IMG/VR virus record: IMGVR_UViG_3300020577_012633 | Span: 32,001-96,000 of that record | Reading direction: 5' to 3' (one strand) | Length of the DNA stretch: 64,000 nucleotides | Origin: a virus | Lineage: Duplodnaviria; Caudoviricetes | In this document: positions 14,669-51,214 of the stretch, piece by piece | Position numbering within the stretch: position 1 is the stretch's first letter | Layout of the letters: each line of letters opens with the position of its first letter | Translations under genes and position numbers: made by a program | The notes under the pieces: model-generated | What the model was told of the DNA's origin: nothing | The model's database searches: none | What the model saw: only the letters and a program-made list of their open reading frames with translations

Positions 14669-14730
14669 AAATCACCTCATAGAAGTGATTACGAACAAAC
14701 TGCTTAGAAATCCTCTTTCTATTCCAAAAA

Positions 14731-14804
14731 TATCCCCGACAGGACTCGAACCTGTGACTTTCGGTTTAGAAAACCGATGCTCTATCCAACTGAGCTACGG
14801 GGAC
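14731..14804 (-). tRNA. tRNA-Arg(TCT)
   Basis: GTCCCCG/CGGGGAT acceptor, anticodon arm TCGGT-TTTCTAA-ACCGA, T arm ACAGG-TTCGAGT-CCTGT; CCA not encoded. Confidence 0.95.
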
Positions 14805-14812
14805 AAATTATA

Positions 14813-18127: not shown

Positions 18128-18131
18128 GAAA

Positions 18132-18206
18132 TGACCCTGGAGGAATTTGAATCCTCGTTACCGCCGTGAAAGGGCGATGTCCTAAACCAGTCTAGACGAC
18201 AGGGCC
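18132..18206 (-). tRNA. tRNA-Glu(TTC)
   Basis: GGCCCTG/CAGGGTC, TCGCC-CTTTCAC-GGCGG. Confidence 0.93.
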
Positions 18207-18223
18207 AAATATATTCAATTGAA

Positions 18224-18295
18224 TGACCCTGACGGGATTCGAACCCGTACTTTCTGACTGAGAATCAGAAATCCTAGCCGTTAGACGACAGGGCC
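18224..18295 (-). tRNA. tRNA-Glu(CTC)
   Basis: GGCCCTG/CAGGGTC, TCTGA-TTCTCAG-TCAGA, ACGGG-TTCGAAT-CCCGT. Confidence 0.93.
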
Positions 18296-18433
18296 AAAAT
18301 AAATCAGTTTTAGGTCTGTTGCTCAAGCCTTTAGGCGAGCCGAACCGCTTCCTTGCGCCTTTTACTGGCGTTCTAGGAAGTTCCTCTGTTCAGATTCTTT
18401 GAGGTTGCGGTTCATGGTAATATCCTTATACAA

Positions 18434-42359: not shown

Positions 42360-42373
42360 TTTAACCTTTCAAA

Positions 42374-42448
42374 TGCCCTCGGCGGGACTCGAACCCACAA
42401 CTCTCAGAATTTTAGAGATTCCGGTTCTGCCAATTGAACTACGAGAGC
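42374..42448 (-). tRNA. amber suppressor tRNA (anticodon CTA)
   Basis: GCTCTCG/CGAGGGC-A, D arm GTTC-AATTGGCA-GAAC, anticodon arm GGAAT-CTCTAAA-ATTCT, T arm GTGGG-TTCGAGT-CCCGC. Confidence 0.9.
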
Positions 42449-42452
42449 AATA

Positions 42453-43832: not shown

Positions 43833-45065
43833 CTAAATGGTAATTTTATCTTTTGCTACCAGCATTGATTTTACGCAATCTCTTCGAGATCCTGAACTAA
43901 CATAAACTCTCAACACATTGCAAGATTTTGCAACAGTATGTATAAGATCATTATACCCTGAAACTTTTACAATTTCATTGTTATTCTTTATTTCTACATC
44001 AGGAGGAATTTGATCAATATGAGTTATTGCAACCTGATGTGAAACTGAAATTTTACTTGTATATGTTTGCTGCAAATCATTTTCTATGGTTTTTGACAAA
44101 AGATCCACATCCAGACATCCAAAACGCAATTTTCCCTGAAATTCATTTGGAACATTAGTGCTATCTTTATAGGAAAGATTAGGATCTTCTGTTGGAAATG
44201 GACCAAGACCATGACGAGTCATGTAAGCTCTAGTTACATATACCGTATCAAGATTTTTGATTTCAAATTCTTTGCAAAGACTAAGTACATTTTTTAGACC
44301 TGTTTTACTTCTTGTTACATGCGGGAAAAATTCATGATCTTCATCTAACAGAAGACCTTGAGCGCCTTCAAAAACAACAGATTCTGCTTGAGAGTCTTCA
44401 AGAACCTCTTTATCGTCAACTATTGTGCTATTTTCAATAAAAAGCTCAATATCACTAATGAAATTCTCTAAAAGATTATCTGAATCAAATATTTCAAAAA
44501 ACTTTTTATCTGGTTTTAGGTTAAGCTGTTCAATACGATTTCGGAAATACCCGTCTCTTAGATGTTCGTATTGTCTTTTTCTTTCTATACGATCTAAATA
44601 TGTTGCAATAGTTGTATGATATGTATCGTTTATATTTTCTATTCCACCAAGAAATCTGGTGACGGTTTCATTAATACCCATTCCACAAGAACCATGTTTA
44701 TTATTTCTTTCTCTCTCAACCTGTTGATTTATCAACATATCATATGGAAGAGTCATGCAAGCAAGATCAGAAACAAACAATTTAGGTTTTTTTATGCCTA
44801 TTCCATTGAGTATTTTGAATTCTTTTTTCCAGAGTATTGGATTGATGATAAAGTAATGACTTAGAAAAGTAGCAGCCCCAGCTAAGGAGCCGCTACCAAA
44901 GTGACTGAAAACATGGCGCAAACCTTCAGGAGTAACAACAGTATGTCCTGCTTGAGCGCCACCGTTATATCTGACAACCAGCGTATCATTGGAGCTAAAA
45001 TAATCGGTCATAAGGCCTTTGCCTTCATCACCAAAGTTCGCTCCAATGATCGCTGTAGCCTTCAT
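43833..45065 (-). CDS. purA: adenylosuccinate synthetase-like protein
   Basis: GANFGDEGKG, RYNGGAQAGHT, HGSCGMG, FEGAQG, TRHG, TNVPNEFQG. Confidence 0.88.
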   Translation of the reverse strand: MKATAIIGANFGDEGKGLMTDYFSSNDTLVVRYNGGAQAGHTVVTPEGLRHVFSHFGSGSLAGAATFLSHYFIINPILWKKEFKILNGIGIKKPKLFVSDLACMTLPYDMLINQQVERERNNKHGSCGMGINETVTRFLGGIENINDTYHTTIATYLDRIERKRQYEHLRDGYFRNRIEQLNLKPDKKFFEIFDSDNLLENFISDIELFIENSTIVDDKEVLEDSQAESVVFEGAQGLLLDEDHEFFPHVTRSKTGLKNVLSLCKEFEIKNLDTVYVTRAYMTRHGLGPFPTEDPNLSYKDSTNVPNEFQGKLRFGCLDVDLLSKTIENDLQQTYTSKISVSHQVAITHIDQIPPDVEIKNNNEIVKVSGYNDLIHTVAKSCNVLRVYVSSGSRRDCVKSMLVAKDKITI

Positions 45066-47808: not shown

Positions 47809-47825
47809 TTATTTCACCAAAAAAT

Positions 47826-48053
47826 GAGCAAGAACAACAAGGCCTCATAAATGCCGTTCTGTTTTTATCCTATCATTTCTCTAATGGCCTCAACCCGTCC
47901 TCATAGAGCCACCGACACTCTCAGACTGTTTGAGTTGCTACTTAGGTTGTTCAATCGACTTTTCAGGTCTCCAACCGTAGGTGGAGTAGCGGCAATTTTC
48001 CTCACGTCTTTTTCAAGATGGTGCGATAGGCCGGGCCTCGTTGTCCTATGCTC
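47826..48053 (-). ncRNA. rnpB: minimal RNase P RNA
   Basis: P1 GAGCATAGGACAACGAGGCC/GGCCTTGTTGTTCTTGCTC; P2 CCTATC/GATAGG; GAGGAAAATTGCCG and ACAGAACGGCATTTAT forming P4 with a bulged U; P5 GCTAC/GTAGC followed by AA; P6 CCACC/GGTGG; P15 CTCA/TGAG with GGGT; AGAGAAAT before the P2 3' strand. Confidence 0.88.
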
Positions 48054-48070
48054 GTAAATATCTTAGCGAT

Positions 48071-48449: not shown

Positions 48450-49082
48450 TTACTCTATTTTATAAATTAAATAACTTCCTGAAACAATAGTTGAGCTAAA
48501 ATCCATAGGATATATTCTTGATTGTTTTGTTTTCAAAGATATAATTCCAGAAGAAGATGTTTTAACAATACCGTCTATGTAAAAATAAAAATACTCATTT
48601 TCAGCATGAGACTCTAAATTAATTGAAGTTCCATAATCGGTTTCAATTAAATAATTGCCTTTAGGTCTTGTTGAATTTGAAATTATTTCATTAGTTAAAA
48701 TTCCTGAACTTCCAATTGGGGAATTAATTCCAAACAAAAAACTTGCATTAAAACTTGAATAATAGTTTGTATTTATTTTTATATAAGATTGAATGCGATA
48801 ATTTTTATTAGCTTCAGCTTCAAATGACAATTCATTAATAGAATACCATTCTGAATCCAAAACTATATTTTGATTATTTTGTTTTACTATTTTTGAAAAT
48901 AAACCAGGAATAAATTGAGAAGGAGGTAATACATAAGACAAAGAGTTCCATCTAGAAACTCCGTCTCCAATCTTGAAAAAATTTGAGCTAGTTTCAAATC
49001 CTATTTCTCCGCTTAGAAGAATAGGATTATGTAAAGACCAATTTGCAGCAGAATCGTGTCGAATTTGTATATTTGTTGCCAT
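48450..49082 (-). CDS. Mtd-N/hyaluronidase N-terminal-like domain protein (virion fibre-like)
   Basis: IQIRHDSAANW..NPILLSGEIGFET..FKIGDGVSRWNSLSY. Confidence 0.82.
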   Translation of the reverse strand: MATNIQIRHDSAANWSLHNPILLSGEIGFETSSNFFKIGDGVSRWNSLSYVLPPSQFIPGLFSKIVKQNNQNIVLDSEWYSINELSFEAEANKNYRIQSYIKINTNYYSSFNASFLFGINSPIGSSGILTNEIISNSTRPKGNYLIETDYGTSINLESHAENEYFYFYIDGIVKTSSSGIISLKTKQSRIYPMDFSSTIVSGSYLIYKIE

Positions 49083-49449: not shown

Positions 49450-50535
49450 TTATATTCCCAATTTATTCGTCTCTCCAGAATTTCCAAAGAACCAATGTTC
49501 ATTTGCTGTAACGTGTCCTTTTCTAACAAATTTTGCTATAGACCTTGAAAAATCTTTATAATGAAAACTATCGGCCAACCGAACAACGTATCCCTCACAG
49601 TCCTCACCATTTATTACTGGTTTATAAAGTTCTTTAATCGTTTTTTCATTCCATATTCCTCTATAAATAATCGGTACTATTGGAATGCCAAGAAGTTGAA
49701 ACCATTCGTTAGTTGTATCCCAATCAAGACAAATTAGATTGTTCCAAGCTGAAATCCCATAGCAATAACTTTCCAAATTCTTATATGGAATGGAATGTTT
49801 TGCATAAAGATTTTCTACAACAAATCTCATGTTCTCAGGAATATCATGACAAATATTCCCGTGAAAATTCTTTATCCAACTTTTTGACCAGTGTTTCTTA
49901 TCTGCTAAAGAACGAGCATGAATATAGTCATTATACATTGTTGTATTTTCACCATCCATCTTGATGGTTACTACAACCTCTTTGCCATTAAATATGTCTA
50001 TATTCTTTATAATGCGATCATCGTCAGTAGCTCCAGGAGACCAAGGCAAATGCCAAGTTCTTGGATACTTTACATAACGACTAAATAAATTAAGTACATT
50101 GCCTTCGTTCAATACTTTTTGAACAGAAATATCATCAAAAAGCTCGCCTCTGAGTCTTGTCCCATTGGGCATAATAGGATTAGCCCATTTATCATACACT
50201 TGATCATCGTAAAGATGTTCTGGTATAATCTTATCTTTTTCTAGGATTCCGCAAGCTGCTCTAATCTCTTCAACACATAAAATTGTCATTTCAGCTTTGA
50301 TATGACATTCAGGGCAAAGGCTAGAGCCGTTGTTGATTAGATATCCACCGAAAGTTTCCGGGTCTATCCATAGTCGTCTTTCTAAGATATGATGAGCATC
50401 GAGATTCGTCTTAGTTGATGTCTTAAGACAAATAACGCATTTGTGATCATCACGAGCAAAAACCTTCTCTCTAAATTCGTTTCTAGAAAGAATTTTCCGT
50501 GACCGATTTACATAGTTGTTTGAATTTGACTTCAT
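49450..50535 (-). CDS. HNH-domain/RNA ligase fusion
   Basis: N-terminal RDDHKCVIC..DAHHI..LCPECH; KYPRTWHLPWSPG, motif I KMDGEN, EGYVVR, AKFVR. Confidence 0.88.
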   Translation of the reverse strand: MKSNSNNYVNRSRKILSRNEFREKVFARDDHKCVICLKTSTKTNLDAHHILERRLWIDPETFGGYLINNGSSLCPECHIKAEMTILCVEEIRAACGILEKDKIIPEHLYDDQVYDKWANPIMPNGTRLRGELFDDISVQKVLNEGNVLNLFSRYVKYPRTWHLPWSPGATDDDRIIKNIDIFNGKEVVVTIKMDGENTTMYNDYIHARSLADKKHWSKSWIKNFHGNICHDIPENMRFVVENLYAKHSIPYKNLESYCYGISAWNNLICLDWDTTNEWFQLLGIPIVPIIYRGIWNEKTIKELYKPVINGEDCEGYVVRLADSFHYKDFSRSIAKFVRKGHVTANEHWFFGNSGETNKLGI

Positions 50536-51214
50536 CAAAATTTCTTTTCATTAGGTTAATGTCCTTATGCGTCCATTGAACATTGCCCTCGATATATCCT
50601 TTACTTGAGTCTATGCGATCAAGAGAAGCAGTTGCGCTACCGTGACTGGTTTTTGGAAAGGAAATCTCCAAACCCGAAAGTGCGCATTTCCCTTTTTGGT
50701 CAAGATAGAGTTTCCAACCATATTGAATAGAAATGGAAAAGTCTAATTTTCGTTTTGATGCCTGAATTCTATACAAGGACCATCTACTTGCATTAATGTC
50801 TCCACAACCTTTGAATAGCGGATTGCTTTCACCGAATCTGCGAATTTCATTTCTGGCACAGCCGCAAGACTTGACTTCGTTTCGAAGAAGAACCCCAGGT
50901 AATCTTTCTACATTTTTCTTTCCGCAAGAACAATCACACATTGCGATCCATCGTCTTCCCCATTTACCCTCCTTGACTCGCATATCAATGACGGATAATT
51001 TACCAAAAACTTTACCGATAAGTTCTCCGTTGTATTCAGGAACATCTCGATTTTTTCTATCTATTGCTGAACAATTTTTGCGTTTTCTTAATCTATTTAG
51101 GGTGGTTTTACTAATATCAAATTTTGAACATATTTCTTCTATAAACTCCCCTGAACGATAAGCTTCTACTATCGCCTTTTCCTGCGATTCCGTAAGTCTC
51201 TTTCCTTTAACCAT
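50483..51214 (-). mobile_element. HNH homing-endonuclease-like gene
   Basis: N-terminal HTH, CDCSCG..KSCGC, GKCALSG, SLDRIDSSKGY..NVQW; AAGGAG RBS before ATG 51214. Confidence 0.88.

What the first reader, a model, noticed from the sequence alone, without database searches (positions are those of the whole stretch)
47826..48053. Phage-encoded minimal RNase P ribozyme with rewritten P4 and almost no specificity domain
Seen: in a gap between genes, the catalytic-domain elements occur in the right order. These are P1 (~19 bp), P2, P3 with a GAAA loop, GAGGAA, P4, P5, the P6 pseudoknot CCACC/GGTGG, P15-P17 with the L15 GGU, AGAGAAAU and ACAGAA..UUAU. P4 is AAAU(U)GCCG/CGGCAUUU rather than the usual AAG(U)CCGGG/CCCGGCUU: changed on both strands, with pairing and a bulged U kept. 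Within P7 (GGTTG/CAACC) only ~22 nt with one small hairpin remain, and P18/P19 are absent; total length is 228 nt. Established: bacterial RNase P RNAs are typically ~350-400 nt and use the S-domain to read the tRNA T-loop; S-domain-less forms are known from Thermoproteaceae (type T). Inference: a viral RNase P of reduced type, with possibly relaxed or redirected specificity (phage tRNAs, the tRNA-like Y RNA, host RNAs), or a sponge for host RnpA. Standard models may miss it.
Basis: partly seen in the sequence, partly recalled or inferred. Interest (0 to 1): 0.93.

Follow-up and report, generated by a model that had tools for sequence, protein, structure and literature searches.

The report
Phage-encoded miniature RNase P RNA
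A giant uncultured phage carries a 228-base, stripped-down gene for RNase P RNA, the ribozyme that trims new tRNAs; it keeps the whole catalytic half, has almost none of the half that reads the tRNA shape, and belongs to a large phage family I could not find described in print.

Summary
On the minus strand at 48053->47826 lies a 228-nt RNA with the full helix order of a bacterial type-A RNase P catalytic domain: P1-P5, P15-P17 and the P4 and P6 pseudoknots. The motifs GAGGAA, GCAA, GGU, AGAGAAAU and ACAGAA..UAU are all present. The specificity domain is reduced to P7 plus 22 nt.

Rfam finds nothing. I collected 47 relatives from phage contigs, including the 735-kb phage LR756501. Every helix covaries, including both pseudoknots, which were left out of the model. 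A model built only from relatives scores this RNA at 136 bits. The same model also hits (E 1e-8) a 314-nt phage RNA that Rfam calls class-A RNase P at 208 bits, which supports homology.

The "rewritten P4" is real. Near-identical relatives carry a different P4. This RNA departs from the family's 36 near-invariant columns only at the two sides of one P4 pair (C-G to U-A).

No rnpA gene was found in any phage genome checked. The 123-kb fragment has 24 tRNA genes on the same strand.

Cleavage activity is inferred, not shown. Earlier AI notes in this scan report this family on other DNA. I found no paper on it.

The parts
47826..48053 (-). Whole 228-nt miniature RNase P RNA gene (5' end at 48053)
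   Evidence: Model R1, built without this sequence, scores it at 135.9 bits, E 6e-38.
48034..48053 (-). P1 5' strand (nt 1-20, U6 bulged). Pairs with 47826-47844 for 19 bp.
   Evidence: Read directly from the sequence and present in the MFE fold. In the family, 11 of 11 P1 pairs show changes on both sides.
48025..48030 (-). P2 5' strand CCUAUC. Pairs with GAUAGG at 47869-47874.
   Evidence: P2 covaries: 6 of 7 pairs, and 98.6% of cells paired.
48003..48023 (-). P3 hairpin: CAC..GUG closing UCUU-GAAA-AAGA
   Evidence: P3 covaries in 4 of 5 pairs.
47990..48003 (-). J3/4 GAGGAA followed by the P4 5' strand AAA(U)UGCCG (bulged U at 47995)
   Evidence: GAGGAA is at least 95% conserved across the 48 members. 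The register is identical to E. coli rnpB. P4 covaries in 6 of 8 pairs although it was not part of the model.
47986..47989 (-). P5 5' strand CUAC. Pairs with GUAG at 47938-47941.
   Evidence: helix 5: 4 of 4 pairs covary and 97.4% of cells are paired.
47980..47984 (-). P6 pseudoknot 5' strand CCACC. Pairs with GGUGG at 47909-47913 in loop L17.
   Evidence: 5 of 5 pairs covary and 99% of cells are paired. P6 was not in the model.
47945..47976 (-). P7 (GGUUG/CAACC) enclosing the 22-nt remnant of the specificity domain: GA, hairpin GAC-CUGAAAA-GUC, then GAUUGAA
   Evidence: P7 and the stub hairpin both covary in the family (helices 6 and 7). In the first ten sequences this was the longest invariant stretch.
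47889..47937 (-). J5/15 (CAA; the GCAA motif starts with the last G of P5 at 47938), then P15 (CUCAA/UUGAG), P16 (GUCU/GGAC), P17 (AGAG/CUCU) and the GGGU that matches the CCA-binding GGU of type-A L15
   Evidence: helices 8-10. GGU is at least 95% conserved. The segment aligns to CGGGUAGG of an Rfam-validated phage RNase P RNA.
47875..47882 (-). AGAGAAAU, the counterpart of J18/2 (CR-IV). It follows P15 with only a 6-nt linker because P18 is absent.
47849..47862 (-). J2/4 ACAGAA plus the P4 3' strand CGGCAUUU (followed by AU)
47819..47844 (-). P1 3' strand (47826-47844), then AUUUUUU. Together with P1 this looks like an intrinsic-terminator-type 3' end.
   Evidence: Read from the sequence. 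Relatives end in separate hairpin-plus-U-run terminators. The consensus scanner did not call a terminator here.

Best explanation
This is a real gene for a reduced RNase P RNA.

SHOWN:
- It is a conserved, structured RNA with the complete secondary structure of a bacterial type-A RNase P catalytic domain. That includes the two long-range pseudoknots P4 and P6 and the conserved single-stranded core nucleotides.
- It is homologous to class-A RNase P RNA.
- It belongs to a large family confined, as far as I could see, to (mostly large) phage genomes.

INFERRED:
- It is transcribed from the minus strand as its own short unit, with P1 plus a U-run as the 3' end.
- It folds into the catalytic core and cuts the 5' leaders off the phage's many pre-tRNAs, using the usual metal-ion chemistry at the P4 / J3/4 / J2/4 / J18/2 core.
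- The substrate would be held by the acceptor stem, by the 3'-CCA pairing with the kept GGU, and by the leader. The T-loop/elbow would not take part, because the S-domain is gone.
- No phage genome examined encodes RnpA, so the cofactor is most likely the host's RnpA.
- The benefit would be a phage-controlled supply of tRNA 5'-processing capacity during infection. This genome is heavily invested in tRNA and RNA biology (at least 24 tRNAs, an RNA ligase, and Ro60/Y RNAs according to earlier scan notes).
For: 1. Architecture and motifs are all present in the right order.
2. Covariation in 48 sequences. Nested helices are 93.6% paired, against 35-46% when the partner is slid. Of 59 pairs, 49 have double changes, and 0 of 500 shuffles reach the covariation score.
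3. P4 and P6 were not in the model, yet they are 97.4% paired against 19-52% when slid, with 11 of 13 pairs showing double changes.
4. Model R1, built from 9 relatives without this sequence, scores it at 135.9 bits, E 6e-38.
5. R1 also hits L156:9812-10123(-) at E 1e-8 in 759 kb. That stretch is what Rfam RF00010 scores at 208 bits. The alignment puts L156's 130-nt S-domain where the stub lies.
6. Core nucleotides with no obvious role beyond catalysis or substrate binding are at least 95% conserved: GAGGAA, the second A of the J5/15 GCAA (the first A is >=80%), the GGU of L15, AGA.AAAUG, and ACAG.A (the last A of ACAGAA; the fifth base varies A/G). The bulged U of P4 is present in 44 of 48 members.
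7. This RNA matches 34 of 36 such columns. The two misses are one compensated P4 pair.
8. Substrates are abundant: 24 tRNA genes in 123 kb, all on the same strand. In 15 of 47 family loci a tRNA gene lies within 500 nt, always on the same strand, and in 11 it lies within 100 nt.
9. A C-domain without the S-domain is catalytically active in vitro (abstract of PMC5839562). Natural S-domain-poor type-T RNAs are reported active (PMC7191817, citing Lai 2010).
Against: There is no expression or cleavage data.

Neither the Rfam RNase P models nor my model run against E. coli rnpB give a direct significant match. The link to RNase P therefore goes through a phage intermediate and a hand-built descriptor.

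There is no rnpA in the phage, so activity depends on an unverified host protein.

Loss of the S-domain normally costs affinity and cleavage-site fidelity.

None of the 24 tRNA genes encodes CCA. The GGU contact can therefore only act after CCA addition.

Here the gene is not inside a tRNA array; the nearest tRNA is about 5.4 kb away.
Confidence: 0.65

Rival explanations
1. RNase P-derived ribozyme with redirected or broadened substrates. Without an elbow-reading S-domain it may mainly cut tRNA-like or acceptor-stem-like structures other than standard pre-tRNAs. Candidates are the phage's tRNA-shaped Y RNAs, intron-containing tRNAs, or the tRNA-ORF junctions of polycistronic transcripts (mRNA punctuation).
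For: The S-domain is reduced to a 22-nt stub. Earlier scan notes, which I did not check, report tRNA-shaped Y RNAs in this genome. Ten of the 24 tRNA genes are followed 2-5 nt later by an ATG that opens an ORF of 53-215 aa, so tRNA processing would also shape mRNAs. The stub itself is highly conserved and covaries, which suggests a retained but different binding function.
Against: The GGU that pairs with tRNA 3'-CCA and the J5/15 A are kept across the family. A third of family members lie inside ordinary tRNA arrays. Both facts point to ordinary pre-tRNAs as at least part of the substrate set. This rival overlaps with the best explanation rather than excluding it.
Confidence: 0.17
2. Decoy or sponge. 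The RNA binds the host RnpA protein (or other RNase P partners) without productive catalysis. It would thereby throttle host tRNA maturation or redirect the protein.
For: No rnpA was found in any of the phage genomes searched, three of which are complete or nearly so. By my own knowledge of type-A holoenzyme structures, the regions that contact RnpA in bacterial RNase P (P2-P3, J18/2, J2/4, P15) are the ones retained. One viral RNase P-like RNA, from camelpox virus, was inactive in vitro (PMC3001073).
Against: A sponge would also starve the phage's own tRNAs (at least 24). Conservation extends to the bulged U of P4 and to the GGU that binds CCA. Protein binding alone would not be expected to constrain these. 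P4 pairing is kept by compensation through 31 sequence variants, as expected for an active-site helix.
Confidence: 0.12
3. Chance resemblance, or a decaying relic of a captured host rnpB with no function.
For: Rfam does not recognise it. The single-sequence fold is only moderately better than shuffles (z = -2.35).
Against: There are 48 homologs with compensatory changes in every helix. This RNA keeps 34 of 36 near-invariant columns, and the two misses compensate each other. The core of about 85 nt is nearly identical to L123 and L145 while P4 was rebuilt on both strands.
Confidence: 0.02

Closest known systems
Bacterial type-A RNase P RNA (Rfam RF00010; E. coli M1 RNA / rnpB, 377 nt)
   Same: Same catalytic-domain topology: P1-P5, P15-P16-P17, and the P4 and P6 pseudoknots. 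Same P4 geometry of 3 bp + bulged U + 5 bp. Same core motifs: GAGGAA, GCAA, GGU, AGA.RAAU and ACAGAA..UAU.
   Different: About 150 nt shorter. The S-domain (P8-P14, CR-II/III) is replaced by a 22-nt stub, and there is no P18. The P4 sequence is different (AAA(U)UGCCG against AAG(U)CCGGG). It is encoded by a virus with no partner rnpA gene. Rfam does not detect it.
Archaeal type-T RNase P RNA of Thermoproteaceae (Pyrobaculum; Rfam RF02357; Lai et al. 2010 as cited in PMC7191817; PMC13462272)
   Same: [quoted passage not shown]
   Different: Type T has an archaeal-type core that works with several archaeal proteins. The phage RNA has a bacterial type-A core with P15-P17 and P6. There is no Rfam hit to RF02357. 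The reduction is therefore independent.
Engineered C-domain-only / mini RNase P RNAs (e.g. Eco CP RPR, PMC5839562)
   Same: A catalytic domain without the S-domain. It cleaves substrates with reduced efficiency, which shows that the architecture can work.
   Different: Those are laboratory truncations. This is a natural, conserved gene with a retained, conserved P7 stub.
Camelpox/orthopoxvirus RNase P-like RNA (described in PMC3001073)
   Same: A virus-encoded RNA with RNase P-like secondary-structure features.
   Different: The poxvirus RNA showed no pre-tRNA processing activity and only partial structural similarity. The phage RNA keeps the whole bacterial core and shows covariation.
Reduced mitochondrial RNase P RNAs of fungi (my own knowledge: Seif et al. 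2003; not checked here)
   Same: Strongly shrunken bacterial-type RNase P RNAs that keep P1 and P4 and little else.
   Different: They are organellar, extremely AT-rich and depend on dedicated proteins. Their C-domains are more eroded than this one.

Membership tests
Bacterial class-A RNase P RNA (RF00010) | Scores above the Rfam gathering threshold (100 bits) | tested here: not met
   There was no RNase P hit at the gathering score or at E<=10, either for the window or for relative L001. The family search on G000 also found no match.
Bacterial class-A RNase P RNA (RF00010) | Catalytic-domain helices P1-P5 and P15-P17 with the P4 and P6 pseudoknots | tested here: met
   Covariation supports every helix.
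Bacterial class-A RNase P RNA (RF00010) | Conserved core nucleotides (CR-I GAGGAA-P4 with bulged U, CR-IV AGNNNAAU, CR-V ACAGAA-P4-UA, J5/15 A, L15 GGU) | tested here: met
   A descriptor shared with E. coli rnpB matches. The columns are conserved across the family. The motifs align to an RF00010-positive RNA.
Bacterial class-A RNase P RNA (RF00010) | Specificity domain (P8-P14 with CR-II/III) that docks the tRNA T/D loops | tested here: not met
   Only 22 nt with one 3-bp hairpin lie inside P7. L156's 130-nt S-domain aligns as an insertion at this spot.
Bacterial class-A RNase P RNA (RF00010) | P18 hairpin between P15 and J18/2 | tested here: not met
   Absent here and in 38 other family members (39 of 48 in all). 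Only the 9 LR756501-type members have two hairpins at this spot.
Bacterial class-A RNase P RNA (RF00010) | Statistically supported homology to accepted members | tested here: met
   R1, the model of this subfamily, hits L156:9812-10123 at E 1e-8. That stretch is an RF00010 hit at 208 bits. The direct search with R1 against E. coli rnpB was not significant.
Bacterial class-A RNase P RNA (RF00010) | Cleaves pre-tRNA at +1 and works with RnpA | not testable with these tools
   No assay is available. No PF00825 gene was found in G000, G001-G006 or LR756501.
Archaeal type-T RNase P RNA (RF02357) | Archaeal-type reduced core recognised by the Rfam model | tested here: not met
   No hit at E<=10. The core is bacterial type-A in style, with P15-P17 and P6.
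Phage miniature RNase P RNA family (undescribed; defined here by model R1) | Significant full-length match to R1, with the helices supported by covariation | tested here: met
   135.9 bits, E 6e-38, from a model built without this sequence. Its closest relatives are L123, L139 and L145.

The most novel reading that the evidence does not exclude
Phages run a private, RNA-only or host-RnpA-borrowing RNase P. Its elbow-blind mini-ribozyme would process not just tRNAs but any acceptor-stem-like junction: tRNA-shaped Y RNAs and the tRNA-ORF boundaries of punctuated transcripts. Its freely covarying P4 (31 sequences in 48 members, here including the pair next to the bulged U) would show that the near-universal P4 sequence of cellular RNase P is not required for catalysis.
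Probability: 0.3. Interest if true: 0.92.

Novelty: new variant of a known kind. Interest (0 to 1): 0.85.

Why it matters
RNase P RNA is one of the two universal ribozymes. By my own knowledge of the field, natural forms without a specificity domain have so far been reported only from one archaeal lineage and from organelles.

A large family of 190-245-nt bacterial-type versions carried by viruses would give three things:
- a natural minimal catalytic core for structural and mechanistic work;
- a natural mutagenesis series of the active-site helix P4;
- evidence that big phages take over yet another step of the translation supply chain, tRNA 5' maturation, alongside their tRNAs, RNA ligases and tRNA-repair enzymes.

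It also shows that current covariance models miss this class, so phage annotations under-report it.

Tried and rejected
- Rfam 15 at the gathering threshold and at E<=10, on the window and on L001: no RNase P family hit.
- Model R1 against E. coli rnpB with filters off: only noise, with a 2.5-bit hit inside rnpB.
- nhmmer with the family profile against E. coli rnpB: no output at all, so uninformative.
- blastn against GenBank phages: only LR756501 and LR756503.
- The first two pattern scans of IMG/VR returned mostly chance matches, which nhmmer filtered out.
- A genome-contig scan with the subfamily pattern gave 23 pattern matches. R1 confirmed none of them. This subfamily was therefore not found in the 185,579 species-representative prokaryote genomes, at least in this exact form.
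- The sigma-70 promoter and terminator scan gave nothing convincing on the minus strand. I saw a Bacteroidota-type TAnnTTTG motif upstream in L007 and L010, but not clearly here.
- I looked for a conserved neighbouring protein that could be a cofactor and found none. The neighbours differ: RNA ligase here and in LR756501, Tpt1 in L012, a tRNA array in L007.
- I considered a k-turn (L7Ae-type) reading of the stub's internal loop and rejected it by inspection. No tandem G.A arrangement fits.
- The small plus-strand ORF 47851-48057 that overlaps the RNA is taken as spurious, because the substitution pattern is helix-compensating.

Full report
**What is there**

Read on the minus strand, window 48053->47826 is a 228-nt sequence. 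It lies in a 323-nt gap between two small minus-strand ORFs and is richer in GC than its surroundings (0.42-0.46 against about 0.25-0.35).

From 5' to 3' it contains:
- P1, 19 bp with one bulged U.
- P2, CCUAUC/GAUAGG.
- P3, capped by GAAA.
- GAGGAA.
- The P4 5' strand AAA(U)UGCCG.
- P5, CUAC/GUAG.
- The P6 5' strand CCACC.
- P7, GGUUG/CAACC, around only 22 nt with a 3-bp hairpin.
- GCAA.
- P15, P16 and P17, with GGUGG in L17 and GGGU on the 3' side of the P15/16 loop.
- AGAGAAAU.
- The P2 3' strand.
- ACAGAA.
- The P4 3' strand CGGCAUUU, then AU.
- The P1 3' strand, followed by AUUUUUU.

This is element for element the order in E. coli rnpB, which I fetched for comparison. The missing parts are P8-P14 and P18.

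**Is it more than chance?**

The single-sequence fold is only modestly better than shuffles (z = -2.35), and Rfam 15 reports no RNase P family even at E<=10. The evidence has to be comparative.

- blastn found one partial relative in the 735-kb huge phage LR756501.
- Pattern scans of IMG/VR and of JGI metagenomes gave nine distinct relatives.
- I built a covariance model, R1, from those nine without the window sequence. It scores the window RNA at 135.9 bits, E 6e-38.
- A more generic pattern (GAGGAA .. TAGANAAATG .. ACAGRA) then pulled 86 IMG/VR loci. R1 confirmed 54 of them. Many come from contigs of 300-500 kb.

On a 48-sequence model alignment:
- The nested helices are 93.6% paired, against 35-46% when the 3' partner is slid by 1-3 columns. 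Of 59 pairs, 49 show changes on both sides, and no shuffle out of 500 reaches the covariation score.
- P4 and P6 were deliberately left out of the model, so the alignment is not fitted to them. They are 97.4% paired against 19-52% when slid, and 11 of 13 pairs show double changes (the ten-sequence version is).
- The stub hairpin and P7 also covary (helices 6 and 7).

**Is it RNase P?**

Three lines of evidence say yes.

1. One descriptor combines GAGGAA, AGA.RAAU, ACARRA and an 8-bp helix with a one-base bulge joining the sequence after GAGGAA to the sequence after ACARRA. It matches E. coli rnpB and all the phage RNAs held at that point, and nothing else in 1.74 Mb of held sequence. The window RNA uses exactly the E. 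coli register.
2. One of the new loci, L156, comes from a complete 169-kb phage with terminal repeats. It carries a 314-nt RNA that Rfam RF00010 scores at 208 bits. R1 hits the same coordinates at E 1e-8 in a 759-kb search. The alignment is end to end. L156's 130-nt S-domain falls as an insertion where the stub lies, and CGC, GAGGAA, GCAA, CCAAA, CGGGU.GG, CCUAGA.AAAUG, AAACAGAA and UAC are matched.
3. The columns conserved at 95% or more across the family are the known functional single-stranded nucleotides of the RNase P core.

Against this, R1 does not significantly hit E. coli rnpB directly. The statistical link therefore runs through a phage-borne intermediate.

**The "rewritten P4"**

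The closest relatives are L123/L139 (contigs of 494 and 370 kb) and L145. They are almost identical to the window RNA across about 85 nt of P5-P15-P17-J18/2. Yet they carry GUUCGCGA/UCGCGGCU where the window has AAUUGCCG/CGGCAUUU.

Across 48 members there are 31 different P4 sequence pairs. In 44 of the 48 the geometry is 3 bp + bulged U + 5 bp.

The window RNA agrees with 34 of the 36 columns that are at least 95% conserved in the other 47. The two exceptions are the two sides of one base pair, the C-G just 3' of the bulged U, which is U-A here.

**Context**

- The window is part of a 123-kb IMG/VR record judged 24% complete.
- The record has 24 tRNA genes, all on the RNA's strand. None has an encoded CCA.
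- An RNA ligase gene (PF09414, with an HNH insert) lies 1.4 kb upstream. In LR756501 an RNA ligase gene ends exactly at the RNA's 5' end. In L012 a Tpt1 gene lies upstream. In L007 a five-tRNA array ends 436 nt upstream.
- Family-wide, 15 of 47 loci have a tRNA gene within 500 nt, always on the same strand. In 11 the tRNA is within 100 nt.
- No PF00825 (RnpA) gene and no full-length RNase P RNA were found in G000, in the 98%-complete 494-kb relative or in LR756501. The complete 169-kb phage also lacks PF00825, but it carries the 314-nt RNA described above.
- The subfamily pattern found no R1-confirmed copy in 185,579 representative prokaryote genomes.

**Mechanism**

What is shown is fold and homology. 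What follows is inference.
- The RNA is made as a short independent transcript. In relatives a terminator hairpin follows immediately. Here P1 plus a U-run may serve that role.
- It provides the RNase P active site for 5' maturation of phage pre-tRNAs.
- It recognises the acceptor stem, the leader and, after CCA addition, the 3' end through the conserved GGU. The tRNA elbow plays no part.
- The host's RnpA is the most economical cofactor.

Published work shows that C-domain-only constructs cleave with reduced efficiency (PMC5839562). Natural type-T RNAs without most of the S-domain are reported active (PMC7191817). The T4 literature shows that phage tRNA precursors lacking CCA are RNase P substrates whose processing prefers CCA (PMC11143913).

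Rivals are a ribozyme with redirected substrates, an RnpA decoy (a poxvirus RNase P-like RNA was inactive, PMC3001073) and a functionless relic. The last is contradicted by the covariation.

**Novelty**

Six full-text searches and three papers read turned up no description of phage-encoded RNase P RNA.

Earlier AI notes of this scan report the same kind of RNA on other phage genomes. One concerns a 494-kb phage that, by its size and 208-nt RNA length, may be the genome of L123. The scan has therefore found this before on other DNA. I treated those notes as leads and re-derived the family independently.

I class it as a new structural variant of a known ribozyme in a new biological setting.

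Noticed in passing
Same genome outside the window: G000:C1 about 104,700-118,000 (window coordinates 72739-85853): Ten of the 24 tRNA genes are followed 2-5 nt after the discriminator base (often as TT-ATG) by an ATG that opens an ORF of 53-215 aa with no room for a Shine-Dalgarno site. This resembles tRNA-punctuated, leaderless mRNAs.
   Followed up: partly
Whole genome G000, including window 14730-14805, 18131-18296 and 42373-42449: None of the 24 phage tRNA genes encodes the 3'-CCA. One is an amber-suppressor-type tRNA with anticodon CUA. Relatives L099 and L090 also carry CUA tRNAs.
   Followed up: no
L156:9809-10122(-) and L156:6297-6630(-): A complete 169-kb phage with terminal repeats carries a 314-nt RNase P RNA that passes Rfam RF00010 at 208 bits. 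Part of its S-domain is deleted. It also carries a tmRNA gene among its tRNAs, and no rnpA.
   Followed up: partly
window 49450-50538 (-): An RNA ligase gene (PF09414) with an N-terminal HNH endonuclease-like segment lies 1.4 kb upstream of the RNA. In LR756501 an RNA ligase with a PHA02142 OB domain directly abuts the homologous RNA, and EF-G lies upstream of that.
   Followed up: partly
L001:489-520 and equivalent positions in L007, L010, L012, L089, L091, L093, L096, L099: The nine LR756501-type members have two covarying hairpins between P15 and J18/2 where type-A RNAs have a single P18. The second is capped by GAAA in four of them (L001, L012, L096, L099). The other 39 family members have neither hairpin.
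   Followed up: partly
window 48450-49082 (-) and 43833-45065 (-): A protein with an Mtd_N domain (major tropism determinant N-terminal, PF18454) and an adenylosuccinate synthetase gene lie near the RNA.
   Followed up: no
L169:14072-14421(-): Another phage contig that carries a mini RNase P RNA flanked directly by tRNAs also encodes a tmRNA.
   Followed up: no
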